DNA from: a virus
Taxonomy: Duplodnaviria; Caudoviricetes
IMG/VR virus record: IMGVR_UViG_3300044993_000663
Location: 1 to 57,368 of that record
Length of the DNA stretch: 57,368 nt
Direction: 5' to 3' (one strand)
The translations under genes were made by a program, and so were the position numbers. The notes below the pieces were generated by a model. That model had not been told where the DNA came from. It saw only the letters and a program-made list of their open reading frames with translations, and did no database searches. Positions 7,047-22,258 of the stretch are shown in pieces; within the stretch, counting starts at the first letter, position 1; each line of letters starts with the position of its first letter.

Positions 7047-7449
7047 AGCCGACGAGTGAGCGCCACGACTCGCGTTGCCTGGCCCAATCTGCTTCCGCCG
7101 CGATCGTTCGAACCTGCCGCTCCGACACCGTCCCCCCTTCCCCTGCCACCCGCGGCAGGAACAGGATCGCCTCCTGGATGTCCGGCGCGAGGTTCAGCAG
7201 GTTGACGATCTGGCTCACGCGAGCCCGCGTGACGTGGCCCAGTTCGGCGATATCCGCGAAATCGGCCACCTCGCCGCTGCGGACCAGCTCCTCGAAGCGG
7301 ATCGCCAGCGCCATCAACTTCGAGATGCGCGGCACGCGGCCTTCGGGCATCTCTGCCGGCGTCGCACGTTCTCCCGCATGCATCACGCGCGTGCCGCACT
7401 GACCCGTGGTGAAGTGGACTTTGAAGTCGATGGTGACGCCGTCGGTCAT
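7021..7449 (-). CDS. Recombinase-associated HTH-like protein
   Basis: ADIAELGHVTRARVSQIVNLLNLAPDIQEAIL; 4-bp overlap with recombinase gene. Confidence 0.7.
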   Translation of the reverse strand: MTDGVTIDFKVHFTTGQCGTRVMHAGERATPAEMPEGRVPRISKLMALAIRFEELVRSGEVADFADIAELGHVTRARVSQIVNLLNLAPDIQEAILFLPRVAGEGGTVSERQVRTIAAEADWARQRESWRSLVGSTAGGRIR

Positions 7450-9011
7450 GCCGCCTCCTCTTCAACGCCGCGCTGTCCGATGGATCGCAGGCCCAGCGGG
7501 TGGAACGTGATGGAGACCGACCCCTTCGTCGCGTCGTAGTCCACCCGCTGGACCAGCATCCGCATCAGCCTCGCCTGCTCCTTCGGCGATAGGCGCGACC
7601 AGACCCCGTCGAACTCGGCGAGCGCCGCGTCTATCTCCGCTTTCGTGATCCCGTCCGCGCTCGCCTCCTCGATCGCTCGCCGGAGCGTGGCCGCCCGTTC
7701 CTCGGCCCCGCGCACCATTTCGTGGAGGTCCGCCAGCCGGGCCGCCGCGTGGGCGTCGCGGGCGGCGTCGCTCGCCGTCCGGCCCAGATCGGCGTGAAGG
7801 CGGGCCAGGTCCCGCTCGACTCCCGCCAGTTCCCCCTCCGCGGCCAGCCGCTGCGCGGTCATCTGTTCCCGGCACTTGGCCAGCGTGAGCGACAGTAACT
7901 CCGGGTCCTTCCCGATACGCTTGATCTGCTCGACGACGAAACCCTCGATCTGCTCGGCGGGCAGCGAGCGGCACGGGCACGAGTCCCATCCCTGCTTCTG
8001 CGCCTTGTAGCAGACGTAGTAGCGGTACATTCGCGCGCCGTTCTTGCTGGTCATCGTGTGGCCCATCGTGAGCCCGCACGGACCGCAGTGGATCAGGCCC
8101 TTCAGGAGCGCCCCGTACTTGTTGCGCAGGTGCATGCCGCCCGAGCGGCCATTGGTTCTCAGCCGTTCATGAACCTTCGTCCACAGGTCGTCGGGCACGA
8201 TCGCCTCGTGCTCGCCGGGGAACGTCTCGGCCTTGTAGCGGACGCGCCCTCGGTACAGAACGTTGGCGAGCACCTTCAACACCCCCGCCTTGTCCCACTC
8301 CCGCCCACCGTACGTCTGGCCCTTGCGGGTGCGGACGACCTTGGTCCGAAGGCCCCGCTGGTTCAGATCGCGGCAGACATCCAGCAGCGACCGCTTGGCG
8401 ACGTACATCCGGAATATCTCGCGGACTAGGTCCGCCTCCTGGCGGTTCACCACGAGCTTCTTCGTCACCGGGTCCACGTCGTAGCCGAGGATCGATCGTC
8501 CGCCCGACCACTTCCCCTTGCGCCGGGCCGCCGCGATCTTGTCCCGCGTGCGTTCGCTGATGATCTCCCGCTCGAACTGCGCGAACGAGAGCAGGATGTT
8601 CAGCGTGAGCCGCCCCATCGACTGCGTCGTGTTGAACTGCTGGGTGACGGAGACGAACGAGACTTTCTTCCGCTCGAACACCTCCATCATGCGGGCAAAG
8701 TCGATGAGAGAGCGGCTCAGGCGGTCCACCTTGTAGACGACCACGCAGTCCACCTTGCCGGACTCGATGTCCGCCATCAGACGCTTCACCGCCGGCCGCT
8801 CCATGTTCCCGCCCGTGAAGCCCCCATCGTCGTAGCGGTCGGGGAGCGCGACCCAGCCCTCGCCCTTCTGGCTGGCGATGTACGCCTCGGCGCTCTCGCG
8901 CTGCGCGTCGAGCGAGTTGAACTCCTGTTCGAGCCCCTCTTCGGTGCTCTTGCGGGTGTAGATGGCGCACTGCACCCGCGTCTTCGGCTTAGCCTCCGGT
9001 TGCTTCCTCAT
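7446..9011 (-). CDS. Large serine recombinase (integrase) with Zn-ribbon domain
   Basis: Catalytic AIYTRKS, VVYKVDRLSRS, FAQFERE, CGPCG...YYVC Zn ribbon, coiled coil. Confidence 0.95.
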   Translation of the reverse strand: MRKQPEAKPKTRVQCAIYTRKSTEEGLEQEFNSLDAQRESAEAYIASQKGEGWVALPDRYDDGGFTGGNMERPAVKRLMADIESGKVDCVVVYKVDRLSRSLIDFARMMEVFERKKVSFVSVTQQFNTTQSMGRLTLNILLSFAQFEREIISERTRDKIAAARRKGKWSGGRSILGYDVDPVTKKLVVNRQEADLVREIFRMYVAKRSLLDVCRDLNQRGLRTKVVRTRKGQTYGGREWDKAGVLKVLANVLYRGRVRYKAETFPGEHEAIVPDDLWTKVHERLRTNGRSGGMHLRNKYGALLKGLIHCGPCGLTMGHTMTSKNGARMYRYYVCYKAQKQGWDSCPCRSLPAEQIEGFVVEQIKRIGKDPELLSLTLAKCREQMTAQRLAAEGELAGVERDLARLHADLGRTASDAARDAHAAARLADLHEMVRGAEERAATLRRAIEEASADGITKAEIDAALAEFDGVWSRLSPKEQARLMRMLVQRVDYDATKGSVSITFHPLGLRSIGQRGVEEEAA

Positions 9012-9535
9012 GCCTCAACCTCCGCCTTCTTCCCGCGTGCCGACGGCAGGCCGAAGAAGCTCACGCCGTTCCAGTGCGCCCCGGTGATCTTTCGGGCGAT
9101 CGCCGTGAGCGAGCGGTACACCTCGCCCTCGTACTCGAACCCGCGCGGCAGCACCCGCACCACGACCGCCCGTCCCTTGTACTCGCGGCGGATCACGGCC
9201 CCGGGCTTCGGGAACGACGCCGGGCGGCCCGCGTCGAACGCCGCCGCCACCGTCGTCCCCGGCCCGCGTGCCATCGCCCGGGGGGCGCTCAGGCGGATCT
9301 CCGCGTCGTCGGCCAGTTCGAGCGCCCGCCGCCGAGCCCGTTCCGACAAACCGCCCTCGCGGAGCGCCTGCGTCCGCCAGACGATCCGCTTGATGAGGTA
9401 CTGCTTGTGGTTCGTCCGCGTCGGCTCGCCGAAGACCTCGGCGTAGCGCTGCCTCAGTTCGGCAACGGTGAGCTTGGCGAGGGCTCGGGCGGCCGTGGCG
9501 GGATTATCGGGTGGGGGCGAAGGGTGTGGCATCAT
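9008..9535 (-). CDS. DUF2924-family protein
   Basis: LRQRYAEVFG...PGAVIRREYKG...YRSLTAIARKITGAHWNGVSFFGL, upstream of recombinase. Confidence 0.88.
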   Translation of the reverse strand: MMPHPSPPPDNPATAARALAKLTVAELRQRYAEVFGEPTRTNHKQYLIKRIVWRTQALREGGLSERARRRALELADDAEIRLSAPRAMARGPGTTVAAAFDAGRPASFPKPGAVIRREYKGRAVVVRVLPRGFEYEGEVYRSLTAIARKITGAHWNGVSFFGLPSARGKKAEVEA

Positions 9536-9559
9536 CGGGACTCTCCGGTTCGCAAGGCG

Positions 9560-9799
9560 TCAACCGCCCTGGAGTGGACGATCAAGGCGGACCGGTCCCG
9601 AGGCTTCAAGTCCTGAATCCTCTCTTTCTGGATGCTGCGAAATGTCACCCGGCTCGCCCATGCGGCGGGCATCCTCGCGCCGCCGGCGCACGCCCTCGGC
9701 CAGAATGTCCGCGATGATCCGCAGCCGCTTGGCCGGGGTCAGCAGGTCGGGCAGCGCGAAGTCATCGCGCTCGGCCCTTTCGTCGAGGTCGATCGGCAT
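9560..9799 (-). CDS. Small hypothetical protein heading the recombinase operon
   Basis: 79-aa ORF (LTPAKRLRIIADILAEGVRR) between promoter copy 2 and DUF2924. Confidence 0.55.
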   Translation of the reverse strand: MPIDLDERAERDDFALPDLLTPAKRLRIIADILAEGVRRRREDARRMGEPGDISQHPEREDSGLEASGPVRLDRPLQGG

Positions 9800-9877
9800 G
9801 GATGCATCCGTGCGTTGGCTCGCCCAGGGGGCGGGTCAGCGATGGGGTCGGGCCGCCCGCCAGCGGGGCGTCAACCA

Positions 9878-9909
9878 CCATCTACGCAAACGGTTCCGAT
9901 GGTGGCGTG
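9878..9909 (-). promoter_or_regulatory. Putative element-sigma promoter, copy 2
   Basis: Plus strand CCATCTACGC-aaacggttccgatg-GTGGCGTG, upstream of the recombinase operon. Confidence 0.75.
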
Positions 9910-10114
9910 TCTCCGAAGGAGCCGTGTGACGACTCCCAGGGTTGATCGTCGAGTGTCCGAGAGACTGTGGAAAATCGAGCAATCAGCAGGCAGATTCACG
10001 AGTCTCGCCTCGGCGTCGATACGGCGACATTGGATTTCGATGATCCCTTGGCGCTTGGAGACGCCGCCAGAATCAGAAACGAAGCCTCGAAGCCGTCGCG
10101 TGTGTTTGAGAGGC

Positions 10115-10720
10115 CTACGGATGCCCACGCGACGCCACGCCGAGCCGACGCAGCAACCCGGAATCGGGGAAGCCTGTCACGACGCTTGGGCCAGAGTCCG
10201 GTATCACGATCTCTGCCACAGGACGATGCGCGTTCGTCGTCTCACACGCTCTATGGCGCTCCGTTAGGAAATGAACCCGCTGGTTGCTCGAGCCCCGCCA
10301 TAGCAATCCATCAGATCTCAGTTCACGCACATACCTTCCCGTCACCACGATGTCCAGCAGTCCGAGCAGTCGCTTTTGCTCGGCTTCGACGAGCTCTTCA
10401 ATTTCGTATCCCGTAAACGCCATGAGCGACATGCCGGTGCCACGGAGGTGCTCGGCCAGCACGGCCAAGCCACACGCCTGAGCGAATGGCTCGCCACCCG
10501 TGAACGTGACTCCGTCAATTGGCCCGCTCTTGGAGATCAGGTCGGCGATCTCGGAAACGGCCATCAACCGGCGCGGAGCGTGAGACCATGTGTCCGGGTT
10601 CCAGCAGCCCGGGCAGTGCAGAGGGCAGCCTTGAACCCAAAGAACGAAGCGTTCTCCGGGGCCGTTAACGCTGCTCCGCGACAGCCATCGCGCCACGTTG
10701 ATGGTCCCCGAGGTGCTCAT
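10115..10720 (-). CDS. NrdG-like radical SAM (4Fe-4S) protein
   Basis: NGPGERFVLWVQGCPLHCPGCWNP (CxxxCxxC), GVTFTGGEPF, WRGSSNQR. Confidence 0.88.
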   Translation of the reverse strand: MSTSGTINVARWLSRSSVNGPGERFVLWVQGCPLHCPGCWNPDTWSHAPRRLMAVSEIADLISKSGPIDGVTFTGGEPFAQACGLAVLAEHLRGTGMSLMAFTGYEIEELVEAEQKRLLGLLDIVVTGRYVRELRSDGLLWRGSSNQRVHFLTERHRACETTNAHRPVAEIVIPDSGPSVVTGFPDSGLLRRLGVASRGHP

Positions 10721-11214
10721 CAATAAACCCGCTTGGAGAGTACCAGCCGGACACAGCCTTGCTCGACGCGCTCCTCGATGCGATACCCGCTGTTCTTGGC
10801 CTTCTCGATCACCGCCGACCGGGTCGCCTCGACGAGACGTCGCCGTTCTTCCTCCGCGGCTCGGCGCTGTTCCTCGGCCAGACGACGGTCCTTCTCCATT
10901 TGATGTACTTCGTAGCGGCTGCTCAAGCGTGCCAGCCACGCCGAACCGAAGCGCGACTGGTCATACCCGCTCACGATCAAACGAAAGCCGGTCGGTGTCC
11001 GGACGAATCCGACATCGTTTGAGCCGCTACCGACGTGCTGGCGGCGGATGATGATGTGGGCCTGCTGCTCTCGCGCGGCTCCCTCGTAGCCAACCAGTGC
11101 CACCGCCTGTTCATGAATCTCCACCATAGAACGTGCAAAGCCAACGTCAGCGAGGGCATCCACAAGGCACTCGGCATCGGTCATTGGAGTGGCGAGTTGC
11201 AGGTATGCGCTCAT
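10720..11214 (-). CDS. DUF1257 (Ycf35-like) protein
   Basis: CLVDALADVGF...LVGYEG...IIIRRQHVGSGSNDVGF...AKNSGYRIEE. Confidence 0.75.
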   Translation of the reverse strand: MSAYLQLATPMTDAECLVDALADVGFARSMVEIHEQAVALVGYEGAAREQQAHIIIRRQHVGSGSNDVGFVRTPTGFRLIVSGYDQSRFGSAWLARLSSRYEVHQMEKDRRLAEEQRRAAEEERRRLVEATRSAVIEKAKNSGYRIEERVEQGCVRLVLSKRVY

Positions 11215-11426
11215 GGCCTACCTCCGCTCTTCAGGTTGGCCTGATTGGACGTCGTGGCACTTGTCGGCCGATCAGACTGTTTCCGGTCGACGCTTACCAA
11301 TGCGCCGGGGCAATCGGCGAGAATCTTCTCCAGGTCCTTGATGCACGCATCACCCGTGAAGCCGTGCGCGTCGGCCTTGATCCGGCCGTGTTCATCGATC
11401 TCGATCTCGATTCGCTGTTCTCGCAT
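11211..11426 (-). CDS. DUF2997-family small protein
   Basis: IEIEIDEHGRIKADAHGFTGDAC pattern; adjacent to DUF1257. Confidence 0.75.
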   Translation of the reverse strand: MREQRIEIEIDEHGRIKADAHGFTGDACIKDLEKILADCPGALVSVDRKQSDRPTSATTSNQANLKSGGRP

Positions 11427-11429
11427 ACG

Positions 11430-13436
11430 TCACCTCTTTCGAGCAACCATGCGTGCCTTCAGTCGAGCGGCCTCGGCACGGCCAGGATCGTGCTGTTCCC
11501 AGGTGTCGATCGCCAGGTATCGGTCCGTTCCAGCCTCGAACAGTTCTCCTATTGAGGGCAGGGCCTCGGCGGGGACCCGAAGTCCCGCCGACGCCTTCGT
11601 TGGTGCGGGAACAAACCCTTTGCCGCTGCTTCTCTTCGCGTCATTGCCATGCCTCGACTTCGGACTGAAGGGACGCTTCAGCGCCTGCTCATGCTGACTC
11701 CGGCTGCCGTTGAGACGTGCGATATCGTTGGCAACAGTCTTCAGGTCATCGTTGAGCCTTCGCTGCCGTGCCTTCCAGTCCGAATCGCTCTCCCCTTTCC
11801 GCTGACCATCCTTGCTCTCCTCGTCGAGGGACGATTTCTGCTGCTTCGCAGCTGCAATCTTGGCGTCAATCTCGTCGAGTTGCGCCCTGTGCTCGGCCTG
11901 CTCTTTCTCCCACTGTTCGCGCTGCTGCTGTTCGTCGGCCTTGGCGATATCGCTATCCACGCCACGGACATACTCCTGCACGCCAGCTTCGAGCGTCTTC
12001 AGGCGTTCCACGAACCCACGAGCGGCATCCACCGACCCGCCGGCGAGTTTCACGACAGCAAGCGACTCGCACTCGGCCACCAATTCGCGTCGCTTTCGGT
12101 CAAGGCCGAGCACCCCTTCAAACCAGCGTCCGAGTATTGATCTTGCCTGATCGCTGCGTTCCCCGGCGGACTTGAGCTGTTCACTGCAGGTCTTGACGCG
12201 TAAGGACAGAGACTTGTCCGCTTCATCCCACTGCTGGTAAAGGTCGCTGCGCACCGCTTTCGCAGGTGGCGTGGGCGGGACATTCGTCCATGCGAAGATT
12301 GCCTTGCGGACGAGCGGAGGTGCGTCCGGCCATTTTTCTGGCTCCTTGTTCGATACCTCATCCAGGGACTCGCAAGGAACTTCGCCGACCTCAATCTCTG
12401 CTTCGTCGATGCATGGCTTGGCCGAAGCAGCATTCGGAAGCCAGACCGCCCCAGACAGGGCCCGCAGAGGTACCTCTCTGCGGAGAACAGCTGCTGGCCT
12501 GGCTTGAAGCAGCGCATCGTGGAGCGTGCGAGCTTGAGACGAGTTGAGTGTGATCCGGAGCATGAAGTCGGCGATCGGCCATTCGATCATGCCCTCCGAC
12601 GGCGTCACCCATAAGTCCGGCAGCACCTGCGCAAGACCGATCACTTCCGACCCGGCCGCAACAAGCGCTGCCAGATCCGCCTGACCATCTCCCGATGGCG
12701 TAGTGATCAGTCGGCGCGCCCGCTGGGGTAGCCCGACGCTTGTGCTTCGAACACAAACCGCGTCACCCGGGGCAACTTCAGAATCGACCGGTCTGCGAAG
12801 AAGCCGCACCGGGCCGTCCGTTGGTGGGACGACATCGACTGGGCGGTCTTGAGGCGGCTGAAACGTCAACGCTGGTGACTTCGACTCTGTCCATGCTTCA
12901 TCCGCGGCGTGATGCCAGAACCAGTGGAGGGCGACGCGGACGAACCCAGCGCTCTGGCCCTCGTCAAGCTCAATGGCCCATTGGGGTGCTCCGGTCGCGA
13001 GGGCACCGATGCAGAGCCCAGCGCGCCGGGTCGAGCAGTTGACCACGGCCGAAAGCAGCGGCAGCGAAGTGCGGCGAGCGAGCACGAAGGCCGATGCCCT
13101 GTCGCGCAGGCCCGGATCGCGCTGCCCGGCCCCAAACCCGAGCGAGCCCAGCACGTACACGCGGCGATCACCCGCCGTGGCTTCGAGCATGGCACGCGTG
13201 AGCGAACTTGGTGCCGTTTCAGGCAGCACAAACATCGATGGCTGGCTGGCATCGCCCACCACGCGCCGGATCATGTCGCTGAAATGTGCGCTCGTCGGGT
13301 CGATCCAGGGGTCAGTCGGAGCGAGCCCTTCCGTGCCTTGCGCGAGGCACTCCCACGCGACCGCAATGCGCACATCTGAACGGTCGACCGTATTTCGGCG
13401 TGAGTACAGCTGGATGGGGCCACGTAGAGTGGTCAT
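11430..13436 (-). CDS. Hypothetical protein with long C-terminal coiled coil
   Basis: 668 aa from MTTLRGP; 4-bp overlap with upstream gene; heptad-rich C-terminal third. Confidence 0.75.
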   Translation of the reverse strand: MTTLRGPIQLYSRRNTVDRSDVRIAVAWECLAQGTEGLAPTDPWIDPTSAHFSDMIRRVVGDASQPSMFVLPETAPSSLTRAMLEATAGDRRVYVLGSLGFGAGQRDPGLRDRASAFVLARRTSLPLLSAVVNCSTRRAGLCIGALATGAPQWAIELDEGQSAGFVRVALHWFWHHAADEAWTESKSPALTFQPPQDRPVDVVPPTDGPVRLLRRPVDSEVAPGDAVCVRSTSVGLPQRARRLITTPSGDGQADLAALVAAGSEVIGLAQVLPDLWVTPSEGMIEWPIADFMLRITLNSSQARTLHDALLQARPAAVLRREVPLRALSGAVWLPNAASAKPCIDEAEIEVGEVPCESLDEVSNKEPEKWPDAPPLVRKAIFAWTNVPPTPPAKAVRSDLYQQWDEADKSLSLRVKTCSEQLKSAGERSDQARSILGRWFEGVLGLDRKRRELVAECESLAVVKLAGGSVDAARGFVERLKTLEAGVQEYVRGVDSDIAKADEQQQREQWEKEQAEHRAQLDEIDAKIAAAKQQKSSLDEESKDGQRKGESDSDWKARQRRLNDDLKTVANDIARLNGSRSQHEQALKRPFSPKSRHGNDAKRSSGKGFVPAPTKASAGLRVPAEALPSIGELFEAGTDRYLAIDTWEQHDPGRAEAARLKARMVARKR

Positions 13437-15103
13437 ACGGGCTTCCCTCCATCGAACCACTTGATCAAGTACGGGTAGTACAGCTCCGACGGAGCGACCG
13501 GTGTGCAGGCCAGATCTCGCCACTTCAGTGGCGCGTCCGGCGTCGCGGCCTTGCCAAGAAGAGGTCGCGCGTCGAGCGGGCTGTTGGACATCTGCCACGC
13601 GAGACGGGTATCGCCGGAGTCGACGAGAAGGAATCGGTCGTGCGGCTGCTCGGCCCTGATGCGTCCGAACGCCTGCTCATACCACACGGGCGACTCGCCA
13701 ACTACCTGCTGAATTCGCGCGGCCTGCCTTGGGTCCGCTGCATCCCGATCAGTCAGCACGAAGAGCCGCGAGTTCGCATGCTGCTGACGTAGCGAGTCAT
13801 GCAGAAGCCTGAGGCAGGCCAGGTTGCCATCGCCGCGAACGAAGCGATCGCAGATAAGCACTCGCCGCGGGCGGACCGTGCCGAGCAATCGAGACAGCAA
13901 CTCCTGCATCGAGAGGTTGGAGTCTCGAACGAGCCGAACACTCGCGGGTGATGAAGGTGCCGAGAGAGCGACCTTTGTGGACTTCGCAACCACCACCTTG
14001 GGTTCGCAGGTCAGGTCGAGCCCTGCGGCAACACGCCAGAACAACGGCCGCTCGTTCCGCGTCTCCTTCAGAATCTCCTCCGGCTCTGGTGCCGCAGTCA
14101 TCGCCTCGAGCGGCGTGCCTTCGGTGACGGCGACGTACTCCGCGGCCAGGGCATCTGCCGATCGATAGCCCGGCTCGGCGAGGCGCCGACGCAGCCGCCA
14201 CAGCATCCATCGACGCGCGTCGTCCGGCGTCGCCGGGCCGACAGGTACATCTGTGATGCGGACATGCTCATAGACGTCACCATCGGGACCTTCCACCTCG
14301 TCGAGATTGACCGAAGTCTGAAAGGTGTGTCGTACGGCTTCGTCAAGAGTTTCCTTGAACGGCACCTCGAGGCGGCGTTGCTGAAGATTCCAGCGTCCCT
14401 CCGCAGGTTTGACTCCACGCATCCAACGGTCGGCCAGCGTGCGCAGGTCGCACGGACGATCTGTAGGTGTGGAACGAATCGGCCCCGGGTCACCATCGCG
14501 GCCACCGGCGATACGTCCGGCGAGCGTCCATTGGCTTATTCCCAAGCGGAAGTCAATGTTCCACCGAAGCTCGCAAGTGGACTGATGGTCAGAATCCGTA
14601 TACCCGAGCGGCTCACGGTTCCCGCTCGGCAGATCACGCACCGCAAACCCCTTGCCCGAAATGACCGACCGCCAGACCTGGTTCAAGTCGATCGTCAAGG
14701 GCAGTTGGGCAGGAGTTCCCTCATCGTTGCGGTCGATCCGGATTCGCTCCCAGTGAAGGATGCGCCCGCCGAGAACGGGGTGCTCGACGCCCCACAGCGC
14801 GTACACGCCCTGTTCAAGCAGGGGTGCTTCACCTTCTTCGCTCGCTGCTTGCTTACCCGTCTCGGTGAGCACGTCACGCTTGTCACACAAGCCGATCTCG
14901 CGGCACCAGCCGATGATGTTGCTGCACGCTACGTCCGTGGCATCAGGCAGCACGCTGCGCACCGCCTCGTGCGTGATGACACCACCAGCCTTTAGCGCTG
15001 CCCGGCATAGTGCCTGCATCTCCGGTCGTTTGACATACACGGCCATCTCTGCAAACGCAGCGAATCGGTGCACCTTCAGGGACGTCACGAGTTCACATCT
15101 CAC
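13433..15103 (-). CDS. Hypothetical protein with C-terminal PLD-like (HDR) domain
   Basis: RRVLICDRFVR...QPHDRFLLV...WQMSNS resembles MIT_C/PLD-like nuclease fold; wHTH-like N-terminus. Confidence 0.65.
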   Translation of the reverse strand: MRCELVTSLKVHRFAAFAEMAVYVKRPEMQALCRAALKAGGVITHEAVRSVLPDATDVACSNIIGWCREIGLCDKRDVLTETGKQAASEEGEAPLLEQGVYALWGVEHPVLGGRILHWERIRIDRNDEGTPAQLPLTIDLNQVWRSVISGKGFAVRDLPSGNREPLGYTDSDHQSTCELRWNIDFRLGISQWTLAGRIAGGRDGDPGPIRSTPTDRPCDLRTLADRWMRGVKPAEGRWNLQQRRLEVPFKETLDEAVRHTFQTSVNLDEVEGPDGDVYEHVRITDVPVGPATPDDARRWMLWRLRRRLAEPGYRSADALAAEYVAVTEGTPLEAMTAAPEPEEILKETRNERPLFWRVAAGLDLTCEPKVVVAKSTKVALSAPSSPASVRLVRDSNLSMQELLSRLLGTVRPRRVLICDRFVRGDGNLACLRLLHDSLRQQHANSRLFVLTDRDAADPRQAARIQQVVGESPVWYEQAFGRIRAEQPHDRFLLVDSGDTRLAWQMSNSPLDARPLLGKAATPDAPLKWRDLACTPVAPSELYYPYLIKWFDGGKPV

Positions 15104-18100
15104 GAGTGCCTTCCCCCATTGATACGAGGCGTCATAGTGGCCAACTCCCTGAGCTCCAATGCCACGCGATCGTCCTTGGCATAGAAATCGTACCGGCCGA
15201 AGATGACCAGTTGTTGCCGCGCTCTCGTCACCCCGACGTTGATCCTGTTCGGGCTGTCAAGAAACCCCACGCGCCCGGTGTTCCGCATCGAGAGCAGTAC
15301 CAGATCCGCCTCCCGTCCCTGAAACCGATCGACCGTGCCGCAGCGAATCTCGATCAGCGGCTCGTCCTCATTCGGGTACAGAAAGCAGTGACGTGCGTCC
15401 GATCCGGTAACTTGTCGCACCATGTCGGAAATCGCCTCCTCCTGGCGGACGTAGAAGCACAGACACGCGACCTCCCACACCGCGCGCTTCTTGCCGGATG
15501 GAGGTCTGCGGCCAGCAGGTGGTCCCTTGCGCTCGGCCCAGTCGATAAACCGCTCTAGCCAGGACTTCATCGCCTTCACTTCGGCTTCGTTTACACCCCG
15601 GTGTTCGCTCCCGTGGATGTCCATCCATACTCGTCGTCTGCGGACCTCTGGCGCAAAGTCCCATCGGACGACAGCATCACGCATCGGAATCGTGTTGGCA
15701 TCCCGCAAGGCGGCTTGCTTGGCCAATCGCTCATAGATGACGCTTCGTGGGTAGTTCGAGATCTCGGGGTGCATCCGATGCTGATAGGTCAGGCACTCGA
15801 ACCTGGCCTTCAGGACCTCCGGTGAGGCGCGCAGCCCATGTGCCAGAAAGTTCGGGCGGCGGGACCTCCCAGCCCCGACTCCCTCCTGCACAACTTCGAT
15901 CACGCTCGGGAGGCCGATGTCGCGCTGATCCGCAATCGACTCTCGAATCCCCTTCCATGTGTGCGGCACCAGTTCGTCCAGTCCGCGTTGCATCCGATCT
16001 CGTTCCTTCCGATCGGCGCTCCACCGCAGTTCGTGCCATCGCTTCAGCCGCCAGGCGACCTCCGCGGCCCAAGTTCGTCGAGAGAGAAAGTCTCGCTCGA
16101 TCCGCTCCAGTTCGTTTCGCGCGGCTACTTGCCTGCCTCGCTCCCAAAACGGCGGGATTCGAGGCGAGTGCGTCAGGGTGGCCGCGTGCCGGAATGCCCA
16201 GGAGGTACACTCATCCATCGGCCCTGTGGCGAACACGAATCCACCAGGCAGAGCATCATGGACTTGCGGCCAAGCGTCCAGATCTACCAGCACCCACTCC
16301 GCCGCTGCAAGGCGAAGCACCGTTCCGGAGCCGCTCTCCAGTTCTTTGACGGTCACTCGCGGGACTGGCCCCGGACGCGCATTCCGCGAGACGCGAGCGA
16401 TCTGCCGATTTGAATCGGACTCCAGAATTTCTCGCTCCAGATGATCGAGCACCTCCGTCGCCTCGACGATCAGCCATCGCACGCCCGCACCTCGCACCGG
16501 CTCACGGGTCAATCTCCACGCGATGAGTCGGGCACGTTGCAAGGTCTGCGGGATAAGGTCCTTCCCGGCATCATCGCTCACATGCGCAATGTTGGCTTCG
16601 AGATCGTCGACGTTCGTGAATGGAGGCAACTGCTGCACATCGCCGACGATGATGTGCTTGCGGGCAAGCAACGCAGGAATGATGAACTCCGTAACGGTCG
16701 TCTTGCTCGCCTCGTCGATGATGAGCAGGTCCCAGGGCACGAAGGTCGTCAGTGGCCGGTCGCCACCAGTGAACCTCTGCGACCGCAACTGTGGATGATT
16801 GAGGATCCCGGCTGTTGTGCTGCACGTCAGATTGGCGCTCGTTACCACGAGGCTCTGCGCGGCTTCCCATCGTTCGTCATCGGACAGATCCTCAAAGAGG
16901 CCATGTGCACGCCAGGAGTCCACGACCGACTGGATTCGCCGGTCAAGTTGCAGGGCGCGTACCTTCTCATCCACCCGATCCTCGATACCAATCCGGACCG
17001 CTTCAAGCATCTCTGGACGTTTGTCGTAAAGCTTCTCCAGCGCGTTGTCGATAGCAACGTGCGTCGTGGCGCACATGAGCACACGCTCGCCCCTCTTGAT
17101 CGCCTGCAGCACCAGTTCGCAGATGGCGGTCGTTTTGCCAGAACCGGGCGGCCCTTGAAGCAGCGCGATATCGGTTGTGGCAAGGGCTTTGCGCACGAAG
17201 TCGCGTTGCTCCTCGGTGCCGTCGATCTCGGGTTTGTCGAGCAGCTCCCAATCCGGCTCAGGCAAAGACCACGCCGGGACATCTGGCCATCTCGCCTTCT
17301 CCGGGTTCTCGCACAACCGAATCAAACCGCGATGCGCGGGCAGAGGGCTGTATCGCAGTTGCTGAACGGCCCTCTTCTGGGTATCGACGGCACGTGTGTC
17401 AAGGGGCGCATAGAGGAAGCGCGTTCCCTTCGCCGGCAAGTCCTTAAGGCGCAGCTGGTATCGGTCGCGGTCCACCTCGAAGATCCTGAGGCATTCCGCG
17501 TGCCGTCGCTCGGGGGCTGTCCAGATCTCACGGACCTCTTCGCCCTCACAGAACTCGGCCCGCGGGTCCAGCAATGCCTGCTCTGCGGGGAAGTCGTCCG
17601 GCAGCAGGAGTTGAATCCAGTTCCCGCTGCGCCCTCGTCCATCGGCCGGTTTGGCCTCCAGGCGCACGCTCATCCTGTCGGCCAGCAGAACACTGCCCGA
17701 GAGGGGTTCGTCCAATCGCAGCGTGTCGCCCAGGATGGGATACTCGCGTCGTTTGGAATCGCGTGCGATTCTGCACTCTGCCCAAACGGACAATGCCGAG
17801 CATTCTCGCCGCTGTCCATCAACGATGAGGGTCGAGTCTTCGATGCGACCTTCGAGGCAAAGGGCCTCATCCTCGTCGATTCGACCCCACCAACGAACTT
17901 CCAGCGCTCGTCCGTCCTCGGCTGCAACAGTTTGCGGTCTGCCTGAGGCAGCTGGCTTCCGAGCCACGCACTCCTGCCCGCACCACTCGATCCGATCACC
18001 CTCCAGCAACTGCTCGGAATCAGTCTCAATCAGCAGGCCCGCCGGAACTTGCGTCGCCGCGGTGACGCGGAGGTACTCCTGGCGGTCGACATTGTTGAGC

Positions 18101-18420
18101 TTGCGGGTGAGGTCAAATCCTCGGTGTGAAGGCCATCCCTCCAGCAGCCAACGCACGCTCGCGTGAGCACGTAGGACGACCAGCGTGTCGAGAGGGTGCA
18201 ACCGATACACGTGCTTGCGACGAACAACTTCGAACGCAAAGCGGTGCCGTTGTTGGCGTTCTTCCGCGTTCTGGCGTGCTTGGAACAGGTACCTCTCGAA
18301 TGGGCCAAGCGCGTCGCGGGCCTGCTGTTGAATCACAGACGCCCGCTGCGTCGGCTCCATCGCTAGGTAGTTCAGTAGTCCCACGAGACGGCCTTTCTTG
18401 ATGCTGGGCAACGAGATCAC
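15100..18420 (-). CDS. UPF1/DNA2-like superfamily 1 helicase with long N-terminal extension
   Basis: QGPPGSGKTT, IIDEAS, VGDVQQLPP, QHRMHPEI, TVDRFQGREAD, RINVGVTRAR; GTG start overlaps AAA stop. Confidence 0.9.
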   Translation of the reverse strand: MISLPSIKKGRLVGLLNYLAMEPTQRASVIQQQARDALGPFERYLFQARQNAEERQQRHRFAFEVVRRKHVYRLHPLDTLVVLRAHASVRWLLEGWPSHRGFDLTRKLNNVDRQEYLRVTAATQVPAGLLIETDSEQLLEGDRIEWCGQECVARKPAASGRPQTVAAEDGRALEVRWWGRIDEDEALCLEGRIEDSTLIVDGQRRECSALSVWAECRIARDSKRREYPILGDTLRLDEPLSGSVLLADRMSVRLEAKPADGRGRSGNWIQLLLPDDFPAEQALLDPRAEFCEGEEVREIWTAPERRHAECLRIFEVDRDRYQLRLKDLPAKGTRFLYAPLDTRAVDTQKRAVQQLRYSPLPAHRGLIRLCENPEKARWPDVPAWSLPEPDWELLDKPEIDGTEEQRDFVRKALATTDIALLQGPPGSGKTTAICELVLQAIKRGERVLMCATTHVAIDNALEKLYDKRPEMLEAVRIGIEDRVDEKVRALQLDRRIQSVVDSWRAHGLFEDLSDDERWEAAQSLVVTSANLTCSTTAGILNHPQLRSQRFTGGDRPLTTFVPWDLLIIDEASKTTVTEFIIPALLARKHIIVGDVQQLPPFTNVDDLEANIAHVSDDAGKDLIPQTLQRARLIAWRLTREPVRGAGVRWLIVEATEVLDHLEREILESDSNRQIARVSRNARPGPVPRVTVKELESGSGTVLRLAAAEWVLVDLDAWPQVHDALPGGFVFATGPMDECTSWAFRHAATLTHSPRIPPFWERGRQVAARNELERIERDFLSRRTWAAEVAWRLKRWHELRWSADRKERDRMQRGLDELVPHTWKGIRESIADQRDIGLPSVIEVVQEGVGAGRSRRPNFLAHGLRASPEVLKARFECLTYQHRMHPEISNYPRSVIYERLAKQAALRDANTIPMRDAVVRWDFAPEVRRRRVWMDIHGSEHRGVNEAEVKAMKSWLERFIDWAERKGPPAGRRPPSGKKRAVWEVACLCFYVRQEEAISDMVRQVTGSDARHCFLYPNEDEPLIEIRCGTVDRFQGREADLVLLSMRNTGRVGFLDSPNRINVGVTRARQQLVIFGRYDFYAKDDRVALELRELATMTPRINGGRHS

Positions 18421-20033
18421 ATTCGACGCTCGCCGCGCTCCTCGGTTCCCGCGGCTGACGTTCGTGGTACGAAGGGATTGCGTTGCTCCTGACGGAGGAT
18501 TGGAACCGGCCCACCCGAATCCTGAGGCAACGGCTCGGGTTCTTGGCTGCTCGCCCGCCTCGCCCTGGCCCGTGACCATTCCCTCAGCTGGGTGATCTGG
18601 TCGCGCATCGTGCGGGAGAGAGGGAATGTTGCCTTGATCGCGCGGGCAATGTGCTCGGTGGTGACCTCCTTCCCTTCGGCGAAGGACTCGAACAGGGCCT
18701 CCCGGACCGCTTCTTCGAGCTCCGCGCCCGAGAAGCCAAGCGAGTCCTGGGCAAGCCGGTCCAGTTCGAAGTCCTTTGGGGCTCGCTTTTTCTTGGACAG
18801 GTGAATCGAGAGGATCTCCTTGCGGGCGTCCGCGGTGGGCAGATCGACGAAGAAGATCTCGTCGAATCGCCCCTTCCGCAGCAGTTCGGGGGGCAGCGCT
18901 TCGATGCGATTCGCTGTGGCGACGGTGAACACGGGCGCGGTCTTCTCTTGCATCCACGTCAGCAGCGTGCCGCCCACGCGAGCGGAAACCCCCGCGTCGA
19001 GCTGATCCGAACTGCCCATCCCAGAAAGGCCCTTCTCAATCTCGTCGATCCACAACACACACGGAGCCAACGCTTCAGCGACCTGGAGCGCAAGCCGCAT
19101 GTTGCCTTCGGACTGCCCGACGACCCCGCCGAACACGCGGCCCAGATCGAACCTCAGCAATGGGAACTGCCATGCGGCTGCAACCGACTTAGCAATCAGC
19201 GACTTGCCACAGCCTTGAATGCCGAGCAGTACGATCCCACGCGGCGGCTCGAGCCCATGCTCGCGAGCGCCGTGCCCGAAGCCGCGTCCGCGTCGATCCA
19301 GCCATGCCTTGAGATTGTCCAAGCCACCGACATCTCGCATCGTGGCGTTCGGCTCGAAGTATTCCAACACGCCGCTCTGCTTGATGACCCGCGACTTCTC
19401 CTGCGCAACCAGCGGGATGGCTTCCGGCCCCAGCCGACCCTTCTCGTGCGCTGCACGAGCAAAGGCCAGACGCGCTTCCATGACGGTCAAGCCCCTCGCC
19501 GCTTCGAGCAGAGACTCGACGGGATCACACTCGACTGCCTGCTCCTGCGCGACGCTGAGGCAGACTTCCTTCAAGTCCTCCTGGTCAGGTAAGGGCACGT
19601 CAAGGGCCGGAATCTCCTTCACGGTCTCGGGGGGTAGACCCGGAACGGGACCAGAGAGGATGAGCAGCTTGCGCGGCGAGCCACGGAGCCGCGCTGCTTC
19701 TCGTAGCCATCGGGCCACTTCATGCCGGCGATCCGACGCGAGGTAGAAGTAGTGTGCGTCCTCCATGAGGAGTATGGCCGGCTTCTTATCCTCGCAGTGC
19801 GATTTGAGCACTTCTTGGGGGTCGGTCTGACTCGGGTCAGGTTGGCCAACCTGAGCCACCTCATCGAGGTCCGCCACTCCGCGCGAAAGGCTCCAGACGC
19901 GAGCCGGAATGCCAAGATCTCGTGACAGGCCCGCGACGAAACCCCGCACCCGCTCCCATTCATGCGAGACAATCTGGATGGCAGCCGCATCTGATTGCGC
20001 GAGGGCGAGCAACTCCTGATAGAACTTGGGCAT
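18417..20033 (-). CDS. Ycf46-like AAA+ ATPase
   Basis: DVGGLDNLKAWL, GIQGCGKS, LWIDEIEK, LPPELLRKGRFDEIFFVDLP, GFSGAELE. Confidence 0.9.
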   Translation of the reverse strand: MPKFYQELLALAQSDAAAIQIVSHEWERVRGFVAGLSRDLGIPARVWSLSRGVADLDEVAQVGQPDPSQTDPQEVLKSHCEDKKPAILLMEDAHYFYLASDRRHEVARWLREAARLRGSPRKLLILSGPVPGLPPETVKEIPALDVPLPDQEDLKEVCLSVAQEQAVECDPVESLLEAARGLTVMEARLAFARAAHEKGRLGPEAIPLVAQEKSRVIKQSGVLEYFEPNATMRDVGGLDNLKAWLDRRGRGFGHGAREHGLEPPRGIVLLGIQGCGKSLIAKSVAAAWQFPLLRFDLGRVFGGVVGQSEGNMRLALQVAEALAPCVLWIDEIEKGLSGMGSSDQLDAGVSARVGGTLLTWMQEKTAPVFTVATANRIEALPPELLRKGRFDEIFFVDLPTADARKEILSIHLSKKKRAPKDFELDRLAQDSLGFSGAELEEAVREALFESFAEGKEVTTEHIARAIKATFPLSRTMRDQITQLREWSRARARRASSQEPEPLPQDSGGPVPILRQEQRNPFVPRTSAAGTEERGERRM

Positions 20034-20180
20034 GGTGCGATTGTACGAGTCGATGCGATTCCCAACCTGACCGGCGCGGAGACCATCGGCCGAGCAGCCG
20101 CGGACGCTCTCAGCCTCTCTCTTCCGAGTCGTCTCCCATCAAGAAGCCCACCCCCGATCGGAACCCCGCGTCAAATCGGC

Positions 20181-20192
20181 GTTAGCGCTAAC
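20181..20192. promoter_or_regulatory. Perfect 12-bp palindrome GTTAGCGCTAAC, candidate operator
   Basis: About 150 bp upstream of the AAA operon start. Confidence 0.3.
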
Positions 20193-20381
20193 CGAGAGTC
20201 GGAGAGAGTTTGAGAGGTTCGACCGAGAGGGCGACGCGAACGCCGGGGGTTCTCGTCGCGGCCCGACCGGGCGGCCGCAAACCGAGAGCACGGCGGCCAG
20301 ACCCACCCAGCGTTTGACCCCGGATTCTCCGTCGTTTCCGCCATCCCGCCCGGACTCCGCAAACCGGCCGATCCGTAAAGC

Positions 20382-20408
20382 AAAACCGGCCCGCTTTCGC
20401 GGGCCGGT
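20382..20408 (-). terminator. Rho-independent terminator-like hairpin
   Basis: Perfect 10-bp stem ACCGGCCCGC-GAAA-GCGGGCCGGT followed by TTT on the minus strand. Confidence 0.55.
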
Positions 20409-20430
20409 CAGAAGCTCCCTGTTCGGAACC

Positions 20431-21916: not shown

Positions 21917-21946
21917 GGACGCCTTTCTGATTGCGGCATCGATATA

Positions 21947-22243: not shown

Positions 22244-22258
22244 TTAGGAGGCACCATC

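What the first reader, a model, noticed from the sequence alone, without database searches (positions are those of the whole stretch)
10115..20033. Seven-gene AAA/helicase/PLD-like/coiled-coil/DUF2997/DUF1257/radical SAM operon: candidate undescribed conflict or defence system
Seen: seven co-oriented genes with overlapping or near-abutting stops and starts, visibly less GC-rich than the phage core, in a cargo slot beside the recombinase. Established: Ycf46-like AAA, DUF1257 and DUF2997 co-occur as a module of unknown function, and UPF1-like helicases and PLD-fold nucleases are recurrent anti-phage components. Inference: three large genes (helicase, HDR nuclease-like, coiled-coil) are plugged into the AAA-DUF2997-DUF1257-rSAM chassis as an effector set. 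I do not recognise this arrangement as a named system.
Basis: partly seen in the sequence, partly recalled or inferred. Interest (0 to 1): 0.85.

Follow-up and report, generated by a model that had tools for sequence, protein, structure and literature searches.

The report
Conserved seven-gene helicase, AAA, radical-SAM cassette
Seven tightly packed genes beside a recombinase form a cassette that recurs in the same order in several bacterial phyla, joins a Mokosh-like helicase and nuclease pair to an ATPase and radical-SAM unit of unknown function, and is probably an undescribed anti-virus or anti-plasmid system.

Summary
Seven co-oriented minus-strand genes fill 10115-20033, with overlapping or abutting stops and starts. 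GC is 0.625 against 0.676 for the rest of the window.

The same gene order occurs in all 32 related loci, as far as their contigs reach: 24 hold all seven genes, and only one lacks a gene inside its contig. The loci come from Planctomycetota, Myxococcota, Pseudomonadota-labelled MAGs and a Streptomyces isolate.

The cassette has two parts:
- **Helicase trio.** An Upf1-like helicase (MkoA model, E 5.8e-76), a winged-helix protein with a PLD-fold domain whose H-x-R...S-N-S motif is invariant, and a His-less tandem-PLD protein with a coiled coil.
- **Chassis.** A classic AAA+ ATPase, DUF2997, DUF1257 and an NrdG-like radical-SAM enzyme. The chassis also occurs alone in bacteria. An AAA-DUF1257 pairing, sometimes with the radical-SAM gene, occurs on large viral contigs.

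No whole-system match appeared in PADLOC, NCBIfam or my paper searches. The closest described relatives are Mokosh type I and the CnuH-CnuE pairs of CoCoNuT systems.

Defence is likely but untested, and the chassis chemistry is unknown. This scan found the same cassette earlier on other DNA.

The parts
18417..20033 (-). G1: classic-clade AAA+ ATPase, 538 aa. An N-terminal region of about 230 aa has no assigned family. It is followed by one AAA domain and its lid.
   Evidence: Pfam AAA E 6.6e-28 and AAA_lid_3. NCBIfam CDC48, PAN and FtsH matches are all far below their cut-offs; IteA E 5.9e-19. PADLOC IetA E 2.1e-20. Walker A G/G/K/S is kept in 26 of 26 rows that cover it, and Walker B D/E in 27 of 27.
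15100..18420 (-). G2: Upf1-like SF1 helicase, 1106 aa from the GTG at 18420 or 1086 aa from the ATG at 18360. About 400 N-terminal residues have no assigned family.
   Evidence: AAA_11 and AAA_12. PADLOC MkoA E 5.8e-76, best stretch 312-615 of the protein on model positions 534-843 of 1112. IGHMBP2-family helicase E 1.5e-45. No kinase domain. Walker A and B are kept in 30 of 30 rows that cover them.
13433..15103 (-). G3: 556 aa. It has a winged helix (about 25-90), a beta-rich middle part and a C-terminal PLD-fold domain (about 384-556) with the motif H488-x-R490 ... S506-N507-S508. It looks like the CnuE / MkoB counterpart.
   Evidence: AlphaFold2 model, pLDDT 86.7. VIA-align: MITD1 PLD-like domain Z 12.1 (rmsd 2.9, 140 aligned); SauUSI Z 8.2; Nuc, Zucchini, BfiI and NgoAVII Z 6.5-7.1; winged-helix regulators Z about 6-7. 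Foldseek agrees. H488, R490 and S508 are in 33 of 33 rows, S506 and N507 in 32 of 33.
11430..13436 (-). G4: 668 aa. It has a tandem PLD-fold domain (about 1-390) without an invariant His, a long coiled coil (helices 399-587) and a small C-terminal domain (630-668). It is the fastest-evolving gene of the cassette.
   Evidence: AlphaFold2 model, pLDDT 86.7. Foldseek: Streptomyces PLD 1f0i E 1.5e-6; PLD3/4, vaccinia F13 and PPK1 also listed. No invariant His or Lys; the only conserved His is H175, in 29 of 32 rows. Median identity to the window is 29% in the mixed clade.
11211..11426 (-). G5: DUF2997-type small protein, 71 aa, with invariant G14, G22 and C28.
   Evidence: Pfam DUF2997 at 23.4 bits against a 24.1 cut-off. 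Relatives at the same position pass the cut-off: L047 30.6, L043 49.4, L096 31.3. Invariant columns from 22 rows.
10720..11214 (-). G6: DUF1257 (Ycf35-type) domain, a charged helix and a small C-terminal domain; 164 aa.
   Evidence: Pfam DUF1257 E 1.1e-6, 29.3 bits against 22.2. The protein atlas's nearest cluster is DUF1257, score 0.96. Alignment of 20 rows.
10115..10720 (-). G7: NrdG-like radical-SAM enzyme, 201 aa, with about 50 extra residues at the C-terminus.
   Evidence: Fer4_12 E 4.7e-35. TIGR02491 NrdG at 115.5 bits against a 126.1 cut-off, covering model positions 5-151 of 154. C32, C36 and C39 are in 30 of 30 rows.
20034..20418 (-). Upstream non-coding leader and edge of the shared mobile element.
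   Evidence: DNA collinearity with L001 (89% over 17,033 bases) runs from window 20418 down to 3440 and stops at 20418. A terminator-like hairpin lies at 20384-20409 on the minus strand. No tRNA and no Rfam family.
7446..9535 (-). Context, not part of the system: a DUF2924 gene (9008-9535) and a large serine recombinase (7446-9011) of the carrying element.
   Evidence: Resolvase E 3.8e-39, Recombinase and Zn_ribbon_recom; DUF2924 E 2.7e-40. The same pair flanks the cassette in L001-L005 and L024, which with the window makes 7 of 33 places.

Best explanation
The seven genes are one horizontally mobile, two-module conflict system, most likely directed against phages or plasmids. Here it is carried as end cargo of an integrative element.

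Module A is a relative of the Mokosh / CnuH-CnuE kind. It holds the Upf1-like helicase G2 and G3, a winged-helix protein whose PLD-fold domain keeps an H-x-R...S-N-S site. It also holds G4, whose tandem PLD fold has no conserved His and which carries a coiled coil.

Module B is the chassis: a classic AAA+ ATPase (G1), DUF2997 (G5), DUF1257 (G6) and an NrdG-like radical-SAM enzyme (G7). It also exists on its own.

Inferred working model:
1. The helicase loads on foreign RNA or single-stranded nucleic acid.
2. It delivers or licenses the G3 phosphodiesterase.
3. G4 scaffolds the complex through its coiled coil and, being the fastest-evolving part, may carry specificity.
4. The chassis controls the effector. 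The AAA+ ATPase remodels a complex built around the two small proteins, and the radical-SAM enzyme modifies a cassette-encoded partner rather than a canonical glycyl-radical enzyme.

Shown here: the anatomy, the folds, the conserved motifs, co-conservation and mobility. Inferred: the target, the direction of control and the radical-SAM substrate.
For: - **Co-conservation.** Of 32 loci, 24 hold all seven genes in the same order and strand. In 7 more the missing genes lie beyond a contig end. Only L014 lacks G7 inside its contig.
- **No eighth gene.** Nothing else is conserved in the flanks, apart from the recombinase and DUF2924 pair in 7 of 33 places.
- **Spread across phyla.** In the quick G3 tree, Planctomycetota rows need at least 3 label changes on starred branches. 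Streptomyces and Pseudomonadota-labelled rows sit inside a Myxococcota-dominated clade.
- **Patchy distribution.** The G6 profile matched 10 of 301 Planctomycetota genomes, and only 3 of them with full-length matches at E 3.2e-63 or better.
- **Helicase.** G2 hits the MkoA model at E 5.8e-76.
- **G3 and G4 folds and motifs.**
- **Published parallels (passages read).** Mokosh defence needs the helicase ATP-binding site and the PLD active site. Upf1-like CnuH helicases are typically followed by a winged-helix-effector gene, CnuE, which carries PLD domains in type III-C.
- **Chassis alone.** L043 and L045 hold the AAA, DUF1257 and radical-SAM genes without the trio. In L043 a DUF2997 gene was also confirmed, giving AAA - DUF1257 - a 258-aa gene - DUF2997 - radical SAM.
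- **Catalytic motifs are kept.** Walker A/B of G1 and G2 and CxxxCxxC of G7 are in every row that covers them.
- **Uneven rates.** Median identity to the window in the mixed clade is G4 29%, G3 40% and G2 44%, against G1 61% and G5-G7 52-55%.
- **Defence genes in the flanks.** L026 has a full-length DruE1 (1502.7 bits). L031 has a partial DruE match, L030 TmtA (E 2.6e-65) and L011 Dsr1 (E 2.1e-23). L014 has McrBC and PDC-S02, and L003 a type II methyltransferase.
- **No usual substrate for G7.** NrdD was found in 0 of 5 cassette-bearing genomes and a glycyl-radical domain in 1 of 5.
Against: - No phenotype is known.
- The flank census has no baseline. Many flanks hold ordinary genes: an ECF sigma factor, a kinase, a TonB receptor, a subtilase.
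- Parts of the chassis are common on viral contigs. Of 45 distant viral loci, 33 have an AAA gene near DUF1257 and 6 have the radical-SAM gene. Partners such as DUF3150 and ParB occur there. The chassis need not be defensive.
- A large share of G3 relatives are about 365 aa long and lack the PLD domain. In variant L047 I found no HxK/HxR motif in the fold region of the G4 counterpart. A PLD nuclease therefore cannot be the universal effector.
- G3's closest structural match is the MITD1 domain. By my recall, not from any call, that domain binds membranes and is not catalytic.
- H-x-R is not the canonical H-x-K, and the canonical Asp is not conserved.
- G5 and G6 show no likeness to a canonical glycyl-radical domain: hhalign probability 0.05 and 0.13.
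- Several taxon labels come from MAG bins and may be binning errors.
Confidence: 0.55

Rival explanations
1. A stress or RNA/protein quality-control system, not immunity. The helicase and AAA+ ATPase would clear aberrant RNA-protein complexes. This would be a mobile elaboration of the Ycf46 / Ycf35 type module, which in cyanobacteria belongs to stress-responsive genes.
For: - The slr0373-slr0374 (ycf46)-slr0376 operon responds to many stresses (passages).
- DUF2997, ycf35 and fed7 are clustered in cyanobacteria (passage).
- ycf35 and ycf46 show similar habitat-linked presence and absence in red-algal plastids (passages).
- Upf1-like helicases act in RNA surveillance (passage).
- Some cassette variants have no recognisable nuclease.
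Against: - Distribution is patchy: 10 of 301 genomes of the phylum matched, 3 of them full length.
- The tree mixes phyla.
- The cassette sits at the end of an integrative element.
- Defence genes lie in several flanks.
- G4 and G3 evolve fast.
Confidence: 0.15
2. A modification-dependent restriction system. The radical-SAM enzyme, with the small proteins and the AAA+ ATPase, would place a mark on the cell's own nucleic acid. The helicase and PLD proteins would attack unmarked nucleic acid.
For: - A radical-SAM enzyme stands in one operon with a helicase and a PLD-fold protein.
- G7 gives weak matches to QueE models (E 2.2e-5 and 5.9e-4).
Against: - G7 matches protein activases far better (NrdG E 2e-33).
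- The Pfam scan of the seven proteins shows no transglycosylase, methyltransferase or other nucleic-acid-modifying domain.
- The chassis occurs without any helicase or nuclease.
Confidence: 0.12
3. A function of the mobile element for itself, such as maintenance, addiction or exclusion of rival elements, rather than host immunity.
For: - The cassette lies next to the serine recombinase at the element's end in 7 of 33 places.
- Chassis genes stand beside ParB on a viral contig.
- A close relative lies on a second IMG/VR contig, L051.
Against: - 26 of 33 places show no recombinase within reach.
- G3 relatives were found in 0 other viral contigs and 0 PLSDB plasmids.
- Exclusion of rival elements would count as a conflict function as well.
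Confidence: 0.1
4. Two independent systems that merely lie together: a Mokosh-like trio and an AAA/DUF/radical-SAM unit.
For: - Each module has relatives that occur without the other.
Against: - The trio is interleaved between the AAA gene and the rest of its chassis.
- All 24 complete loci hold both modules in one order, with overlapping stops and starts.
- The divergent variants L047 and L048 keep the same seven-gene layout.
Confidence: 0.05

Closest known systems
Mokosh type I (MkoA helicase plus MkoB PLD nuclease; Millman et al., bioRxiv 10.1101/2022.05.11.491447, passages read)
   Same: A COG1112 / Upf1-like helicase gene is followed by a separate gene with a PLD fold. G2 hits the PADLOC MkoA models at E 5.8e-76 and 1.4e-50.
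   Different: G2 has no Ser/Thr kinase domain. G3 hits no MkoB model, and its motif is H-x-R, not H-x-K. Five further genes are fixed parts of the cassette.
CnuH-CnuE pairs of type II/III CoCoNuT systems and their relatives (Bell et al., eLife 2024, PMC11090510, passages read)
   Same: An Upf1-like SF1 helicase is followed by a gene with an N-terminal winged helix and a C-terminal effector, which is PLD in type III-C. Coiled-coil partners occur. Some extended CoCoNuTs add a CDC48-like AAA+ ATPase.
   Different: The seven genes include no McrB/McrC-like CnuB/CnuC GTPase pair and no TerY-P genes. The words 'radical SAM', DUF1257, DUF2997, Ycf46 and NrdG do not occur in that paper's main text.
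Ycf46-type AAA+ / Ycf35 (DUF1257) / DUF2997 gene sets
   Same: A classic AAA+ ATPase stands with DUF1257 and DUF2997. The three stand together, without the trio, in one Planctomycetota genome and on one viral contig (L043, L096). AAA and DUF1257 stand close together in L045 and on 33 of 45 distant viral loci. Cyanobacteria hold a DUF2997-ycf35-fed7 cluster.
   Different: Here three large genes lie between the AAA gene and the small genes, and a radical-SAM gene is fixed at the end. Orthology of G1 to plastid Ycf46 was not testable.
NrdG, the activase of class III ribonucleotide reductase
   Same: The match covers nearly the whole NrdG model (positions 5-151 of 154, E 2e-33). The CxxxCxxC triad is invariant.
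   Different: The score is below the family cut-off: 115.5 against 126.1. G7 has about 50 extra C-terminal residues. NrdD was found in 0 of 5 carrier genomes and not in the window.
IetAS (AAA+ ATPase IetA with protease IetS)
   Same: G1's AAA domain matches IetA models at E 2.1e-20 and IteA at E 5.9e-19.
   Different: The score is far below the NCBIfam cut-off (68.4 against 510). No protease partner is present. The likeness is confined to the generic AAA domain.

Membership tests
Mokosh type I | Upf1-like (COG1112) SF1 helicase matching MkoA | tested here: met
   PADLOC MkoA PDLC03920 E 5.8e-76 and PDLC03921 E 1.4e-50. AAA_11 and AAA_12.
Mokosh type I | Ser/Thr kinase domain in the helicase gene (Millman preprint) | tested here: not met
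   G2 has no Pkinase hit at E up to 0.01. The best MkoA stretch starts at model position 534 of 1112.
Mokosh type I | Separate PLD nuclease MkoB | tested here: inconclusive
   G3 has no PADLOC or Pfam PLD hit. Its model has a PLD fold: Z 12.1 to MITD1 and 8.2 to SauUSI. The H-x-R...S-N-S motif is invariant.
Mokosh type I | The two genes suffice for phage defence | not testable with these tools
   This needs a phage challenge.
CoCoNuT (types II/III) | CnuH: Upf1-like helicase | tested here: met
   Definition from passages of PMC11090510.
CoCoNuT (types II/III) | CnuE: downstream gene with an N-terminal winged helix and a C-terminal nuclease-type effector | tested here: met
   In the G3 model, residues 25-90 match winged-helix regulators (Z about 6-7) and 384-556 match the PLD fold (Z 12.1). 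Whether it is an active nuclease is not shown.
CoCoNuT (types II/III) | McrB-like GTPase CnuB and McrC-like CnuC with coiled coils | tested here: not met
   None of the seven proteins hits McrB or McrC families. No eighth gene is conserved.
NrdG (class III RNR activase) | CxxxCxxC radical-SAM cluster motif | tested here: met
   C32, C36 and C39 are in 30 of 30 rows.
NrdG (class III RNR activase) | Score over the TIGR02491 cut-off | tested here: not met
   115.5 bits against 126.1.
NrdG (class III RNR activase) | NrdD partner in the genome | tested here: not met
   NrdD was found in 0 of 5 carrier genomes and not in the window. A glycyl-radical domain was found in 1 of 5 genomes, with its own activase beside it. 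Some of these genomes are MAGs and may be incomplete.
PLD superfamily (HKD enzymes) | PLD fold | tested here: met
   G3. G4, tandem.
PLD superfamily (HKD enzymes) | H-x-K-x4-D ... G-S-x-N motif (the motif is recalled, not taken from a call) | tested here: not met
   G3 has H488-x-R490 with a variable residue at 495, then S-N-S at 506-508. G4 has no invariant His or Lys.
AAA+ / DUF1257 / DUF2997 module | DUF1257 over Pfam's cut-off | tested here: met
   29.3 bits against 22.2.
AAA+ / DUF1257 / DUF2997 module | DUF2997 over Pfam's cut-off | tested here: inconclusive
   The window's G5 scores 23.4 against 24.1. Positional relatives score 30.6 and 49.4 and 31.3.
AAA+ / DUF1257 / DUF2997 module | G1 orthologous to Ycf46 | not testable with these tools
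   The libraries used hold no Ycf46 model. G1 matches only generic classic-AAA families.
Any system in PADLOC-DB v2.0.0 | All components match one system | tested here: not met
   Only G1 (IetA, TRIP13) and G2 (MkoA and others) hit. G3, G5, G6 and G7 have no hit. G4 has only a weak JetC coiled-coil hit, E 0.0028.

The most novel reading that the evidence does not exclude
The chassis is a protein-radical or protein-modification switch of immunity. The NrdG-like enzyme, which lacks any canonical glycyl-radical partner, would modify one of the two small proteins (DUF2997, with its invariant Gly and Cys, or DUF1257). The AAA+ ATPase would read or reset that state and so license the helicase-PLD effector. 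This would be a new use of radical-SAM activase chemistry. It would also give a first function to the Ycf35 / DUF2997 / Ycf46-type proteins found in cyanobacteria, plastids and large phages.
Probability: 0.12. Interest if true: 0.9.

Novelty: new variant of a known kind. Interest (0 to 1): 0.72.

Why it matters
If this is a defence system, it extends the Mokosh / CnuH-CnuE helicase-nuclease kind by a fixed four-gene unit whose chemistry is unknown. That unit is an activase-type radical-SAM enzyme without its usual substrate, two small proteins with relatives in cyanobacteria and plastids, and a classic AAA+ ATPase.

The cassette could therefore serve as a handle on DUF1257 (Ycf35) and DUF2997, and possibly on Ycf46-type ATPases. 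None of the papers my searches returned assigns these a clear function.

A cultured carrier exists: the Streptomyces isolate of locus L032. Genetics in a native host is therefore possible. The G3 family has 430 representative clusters at E up to 1e-10, so this is not a one-off.

Tried and rejected
- **Binding of G7 and G5.** Complex prediction with G7 and G5 alignments plus a 4Fe-4S cluster and SAM gave 'no answer' (score 0.02 against a mark of 0.32). This says nothing either way.
- **G5 or G6 as glycyl-radical domains.** hhalign of the G5 and G6 alignments against the C-terminus of a PFL-like enzyme from carrier genome G005 gave probabilities of 0.05 and 0.13.
- **Sequence likeness of G3 to solved structures.** The only hit was a chance one at E 1.1.
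- **Protein atlas.** For G4 there was nothing above 0.79. For G6 it returned only DUF1257 clusters.
- **G3 relatives elsewhere.** None in IMG/VR beyond the window's own kind and none in PLSDB plasmids. G6 has no relatives in deposited phage genomes at E 1e-5.
- **A canonical HKD in L048.** My regular expression found 'H-x-K-x4-D' at residue 486 of the L048 counterpart. The BLASTP output prints a stretch of that protein holding P-H-S-R-Y, which I read as the counterpart of G3's P-H-D-R-F, so I dropped the HKD reading.
- **RNA and signals.** No tRNA. No Rfam family in 9400-21000. Promoter-like and terminator-like counts are no higher than in shuffles.
- **Expression.** Contigs of four runs labelled RNA were laid on the cassette. 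In X19 one 9,181-base contig covers 10115-13127 and 13413-19096, about 9 letters in 100 differing from the window. Contigs in an RNA library do not prove transcription, and three of the four runs are probably DNA. I use this as no more than a hint.
- **PADLOC 'MkoA' hits in flanks.** There were 5 such members. The one I could trace (L007) is a Ser/Thr kinase with TPR repeats, so I do not count these as Mokosh.
- **Tree.** treekit's careful search did not finish in 300 s. The tree I cite is the quick one.
- **The genome search sensitivity.** Its first look missed the window's own DUF1257 gene, so its negative results are weak.
- **Paper searches for a prior description.** DUF2997 or DUF1257: 5 papers, none on defence. 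Ycf46 with anti-phage, defense system and radical SAM: none of the 15 papers listed, out of 34 found, holds Ycf46. NrdG with defense island, helicase and PLD: 0 papers. Ycf35, Ycf46 and radical SAM: none of the 15 listed, out of 17 found, holds 'radical SAM'. The Ophion radical-SAM system (passages) has other partners (PHP, PRTase). The neighbourhood tables of Bell et al. and the system tables of Millman et al. might list this cassette.

Full report
**1. What is there**

Neighbouring genes overlap by 4 nt at four junctions and by 1 nt at one; the sixth junction has a 3-nt gap. The start of the helicase gene is uncertain: a GTG at 18420 or an ATG at 18360.

Pfam names five of the seven: AAA for G1, AAA_11 and AAA_12 for G2, DUF2997 for G5 (23.4 bits, just under the 24.1 cut-off), DUF1257 for G6 and Fer4_12 / Radical_SAM for G7. 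G3 and G4 have no family in Pfam, NCBIfam or PADLOC, apart from a weak coiled-coil hit for G4.

GC is 0.625 in the cassette and 0.676 in the rest of the window. A DUF2924 gene and a large serine recombinase follow directly.

**2. It is one conserved unit**

A search of one genome per species, using an alignment of G3 relatives, gave 32 loci. tblastn with the seven window proteins found the same order and strand in every one, as far as the contigs reach:

- 24 loci hold all seven genes.
- In 7 loci the missing genes lie beyond a contig end.
- Only L014 lacks a gene (G7) inside its contig.
- L016 and L031 have one extra gene of about 335 aa between G4 and G5.

Clustering of 696 flanking ORFs found no eighth conserved gene. 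Only the recombinase and DUF2924 pair, and a few genes beyond it, recur, in 7 of 33 places.

The loci are labelled Planctomycetota, Myxococcota, Pseudomonadota (MAG bins) and one Streptomyces isolate. A quick maximum-likelihood tree of G3 has two parts. One is a Planctomycetota clade that holds the window. The other is a mixed, Myxococcota-dominated clade with Planctomycetota, Pseudomonadota-labelled and Streptomyces rows inside it. The careful search did not finish, and bin labels can be wrong.

Within Planctomycetota the cassette is rare. The G6 profile matched 10 of 301 genomes sampled, and 3 of those with full-length strong matches.

G3 relatives number 737 representative clusters at E up to 0.001, 430 at 1e-10 and 126 at 1e-30, among 1.84 billion representatives.

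**3. The three large genes**

*G2* is an Upf1-like SF1 helicase. It hits PADLOC MkoA at E 5.8e-76 and the IGHMBP2 family at E 1.5e-45. It has no kinase domain.

*G3* was modelled at pLDDT 86.7.

- Residues 384-556 have a PLD fold. VIA-align gives Z 12.1 to the MITD1 C-terminal domain, 8.2 to the SauUSI nuclease domain and 6.5-7.1 to Nuc, Zucchini, BfiI and NgoAVII. Foldseek agrees.
- Residues 25-90 form a winged helix (Z about 6-7).
- H488 and R490 begin a strand, a turn follows, and a second strand ends in S506-N507-S508. This is the place of the HKD signature in PLD enzymes; the signature itself is recalled, not taken from a call.
- H488, R490 and S508 are in 33 of 33 rows, and S506 and N507 in 32 of 33. 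The Asp position is variable.

*G4* was modelled at pLDDT 86.7. Its first 390 residues or so match two-lobed PLD enzymes: Streptomyces PLD at E 1.5e-6, and also PLD3/4, vaccinia F13 and PPK1. It has no invariant His or Lys. Helices 399-587 form a long coiled coil, and a small domain ends the protein.

**4. Comparison with described systems**

Millman et al. define Mokosh as a COG1112 RNA helicase plus a PLD nuclease. Type I has two genes, with a Ser/Thr kinase domain in the helicase gene. Mutations in the helicase ATP-binding domain and in the PLD active site abolished defence (passages).

Bell et al. state that Upf1-like CnuH helicases are typically followed by a gene for an elongated winged helix fused to an effector, which they call CnuE. 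The effector is HEPN in most types and two PLD domains in type III-C. Coiled coils are proposed to couple the proteins, and some extended type III-A systems add CDC48-like AAA+ ATPases (passages).

G2 and G3 fit that pair.

The cassette is not a CoCoNuT, since it has no McrB/McrC-like genes. It is not a standard Mokosh type I either: it has no kinase and no MkoB hit, and its motif is H-x-R.

The words 'radical SAM', DUF1257, DUF2997, Ycf46 and NrdG are absent from the main text of Bell et al.. Supplements were closed.

**5. The chassis**

*G1* is a classic-clade AAA+ ATPase, with CDC48, PAN, FtsH and IetA-type matches all below their cut-offs.

*G7* matches NrdG over nearly the whole model at 115.5 bits, under the 126.1 cut-off, and keeps its three Cys in 30 of 30 rows. 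Five carrier genomes were searched:

- NrdD was found in 0 of 5.
- A glycyl-radical domain was found in 1 of 5, with its own activase next to it.

In most carriers, then, G7 has no canonical substrate. Some of these genomes are MAGs, so absence is not proven.

The chassis exists without the trio:

- In two Planctomycetota genomes (L043, L045) the AAA, DUF1257 and radical-SAM genes lie together without the trio. In L043, Pfam also confirmed DUF2997, giving the order AAA - DUF1257 - a 258-aa gene - DUF2997 - radical SAM.
- The G6 profile found 46 loci in IMG/VR. One (L051) is a close relative of the window's element. Of the other 45, 33 have a G1-like AAA gene within 8 kb, 6 have the radical-SAM gene, and none has G2, G3 or G4.
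- Many of those contigs exceed 100 kb.
- DUF3150, BRCT and GmrSD_N genes lie in L052. In L096 the order is AAA - DUF1257 - DUF2997 - ParB.
- Cyanobacteria hold a DUF2997-ycf35-fed7 cluster (passage).

**6. Variants**

Two divergent cassettes keep the seven-gene layout (L047, L048).

In L047 the G3 counterpart is 361 aa and matches only residues 1-364 of G3 (hhalign probability 98.8). It has no PLD domain. The regular-expression scan of its G4 counterpart found no HxK/HxR motif in the fold region.

The representative search shows the same two length classes: about 555 aa, and about 365 aa matching only the N-terminal part.

The L048 counterpart (517 aa) shows a P-H-S-R-Y stretch in the BLASTP output, which I read as the counterpart of G3's P-H-D-R-F. 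I read the H-x-R PLD domain as an optional add-on to a conserved winged-helix / beta-rich core.

**7. Setting**

The window is an IMG/VR record. A terminase, a head-protease fusion and a tape-measure protein lie at 45-57 kb. Between them and the cassette lie an IS256-type transposase and a 2222-aa Rhs-repeat protein.

DNA collinearity with L001 (89% over 17,033 bases) runs from 20418 down to 3440 and stops at 20418, beside a hairpin at 20384-20409. The cassette is thus the last cargo before the edge of an element shared with L001. The recombinase lies on its other side.

Flanks of other loci include a full-length DruE1 (L026), a partial DruE match (L031), TmtA (L030) and Dsr1 (L011). They also include McrBC with PDC-S02 (L014) and a type II methyltransferase (L003). 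Other flanks hold ordinary genes. I have no background rate, so this is suggestive only.

**8. Reading**

The data best fit one mobile conflict system of two modules; the detailed model is under Best explanation.

- **Rates.** Median identity to the window in the mixed clade is G4 29%, G3 40% and G2 44%, against G1 61% and G5-G7 52-55%. This fits a fast-changing sensing or effector half and a conserved control half.
- **Against a simple nuclease model.** Many relatives lack the PLD domain, and G3's nearest structure is the MITD1 domain, which by my recall is non-catalytic.
- **Against a defence-only view of the chassis.** Its genes are frequent on viral contigs.
- **The radical-SAM substrate is unknown.** G5 and G6 do not resemble a glycyl-radical domain. 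The complex prediction gave no answer (see Tried and rejected).

**9. Novelty**

PADLOC v2.0.0, NCBIfam release 20 and four targeted paper searches gave no description of the whole cassette. Earlier agents of this scan met the same cassette in at least four other genomes and reached the same view. Those are unchecked notes, not independent evidence.

I class it as a new variant of a known kind: helicase-PLD systems with an added unit that has not been characterised.

Noticed in passing
window 20419-40000: Beyond the element edge at about 20418 lie an IS256/Mutator-type transposase (23186-24091) and a 2222-aa Rhs-repeat protein (25227-31895). They stand between the cassette and the phage structural genes at 45-57 kb, so the IMG/VR record may join more than one element.
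   Followed up: partly
L016 12202-13209; L031 13575-14609: Two loci carry an extra, mutually similar gene of about 335-344 aa between G4 and G5, which would be an eighth gene in 2 of 32 loci. L031 also holds a second, partial DUF1257-like ORF at 14686-15294.
   Followed up: no
L014 14338-15050: This locus has no G7. A 213-aa ORF with a hydrophobic N-terminus follows G6 instead.
   Followed up: no
G004:C44:15562-15978: The Myxococcota genome that holds L019 has a second strong NrdG-like gene on another contig (117 bits to Fer4_12). It may belong to a second cassette or to a lone chassis.
   Followed up: no
L052 4378-9325; L056 3800-7360; L096 6243-9653: Low-GC viral contigs hold AAA - DUF3150 - ... 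- DUF1257, followed in L052 by BRCT and GmrSD_N genes. L096 holds AAA - DUF1257 - DUF2997 - ParB.
   Followed up: partly
L043 6323-7105 and 12537-13532: SseB-domain genes flank the lone chassis on both sides in one Planctomycetota genome.
   Followed up: no
window 10115-19096: A 9,181-base contig from a run labelled RNA-Seq (X19) covers nearly the whole cassette, about 9 letters in 100 differing from the window. Transcription is not proven.
   Followed up: partly
L049 7765-11048: In genome G062 the helicase matches in two overlapping pieces (query 5-817 and 812-1104). This could be a frameshift or a sequencing error.
   Followed up: no
window 41984-43660: An ORF next to the tail genes matches a phage methyltransferase family (phrog_24759, E 3.8e-11).
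   Followed up: no
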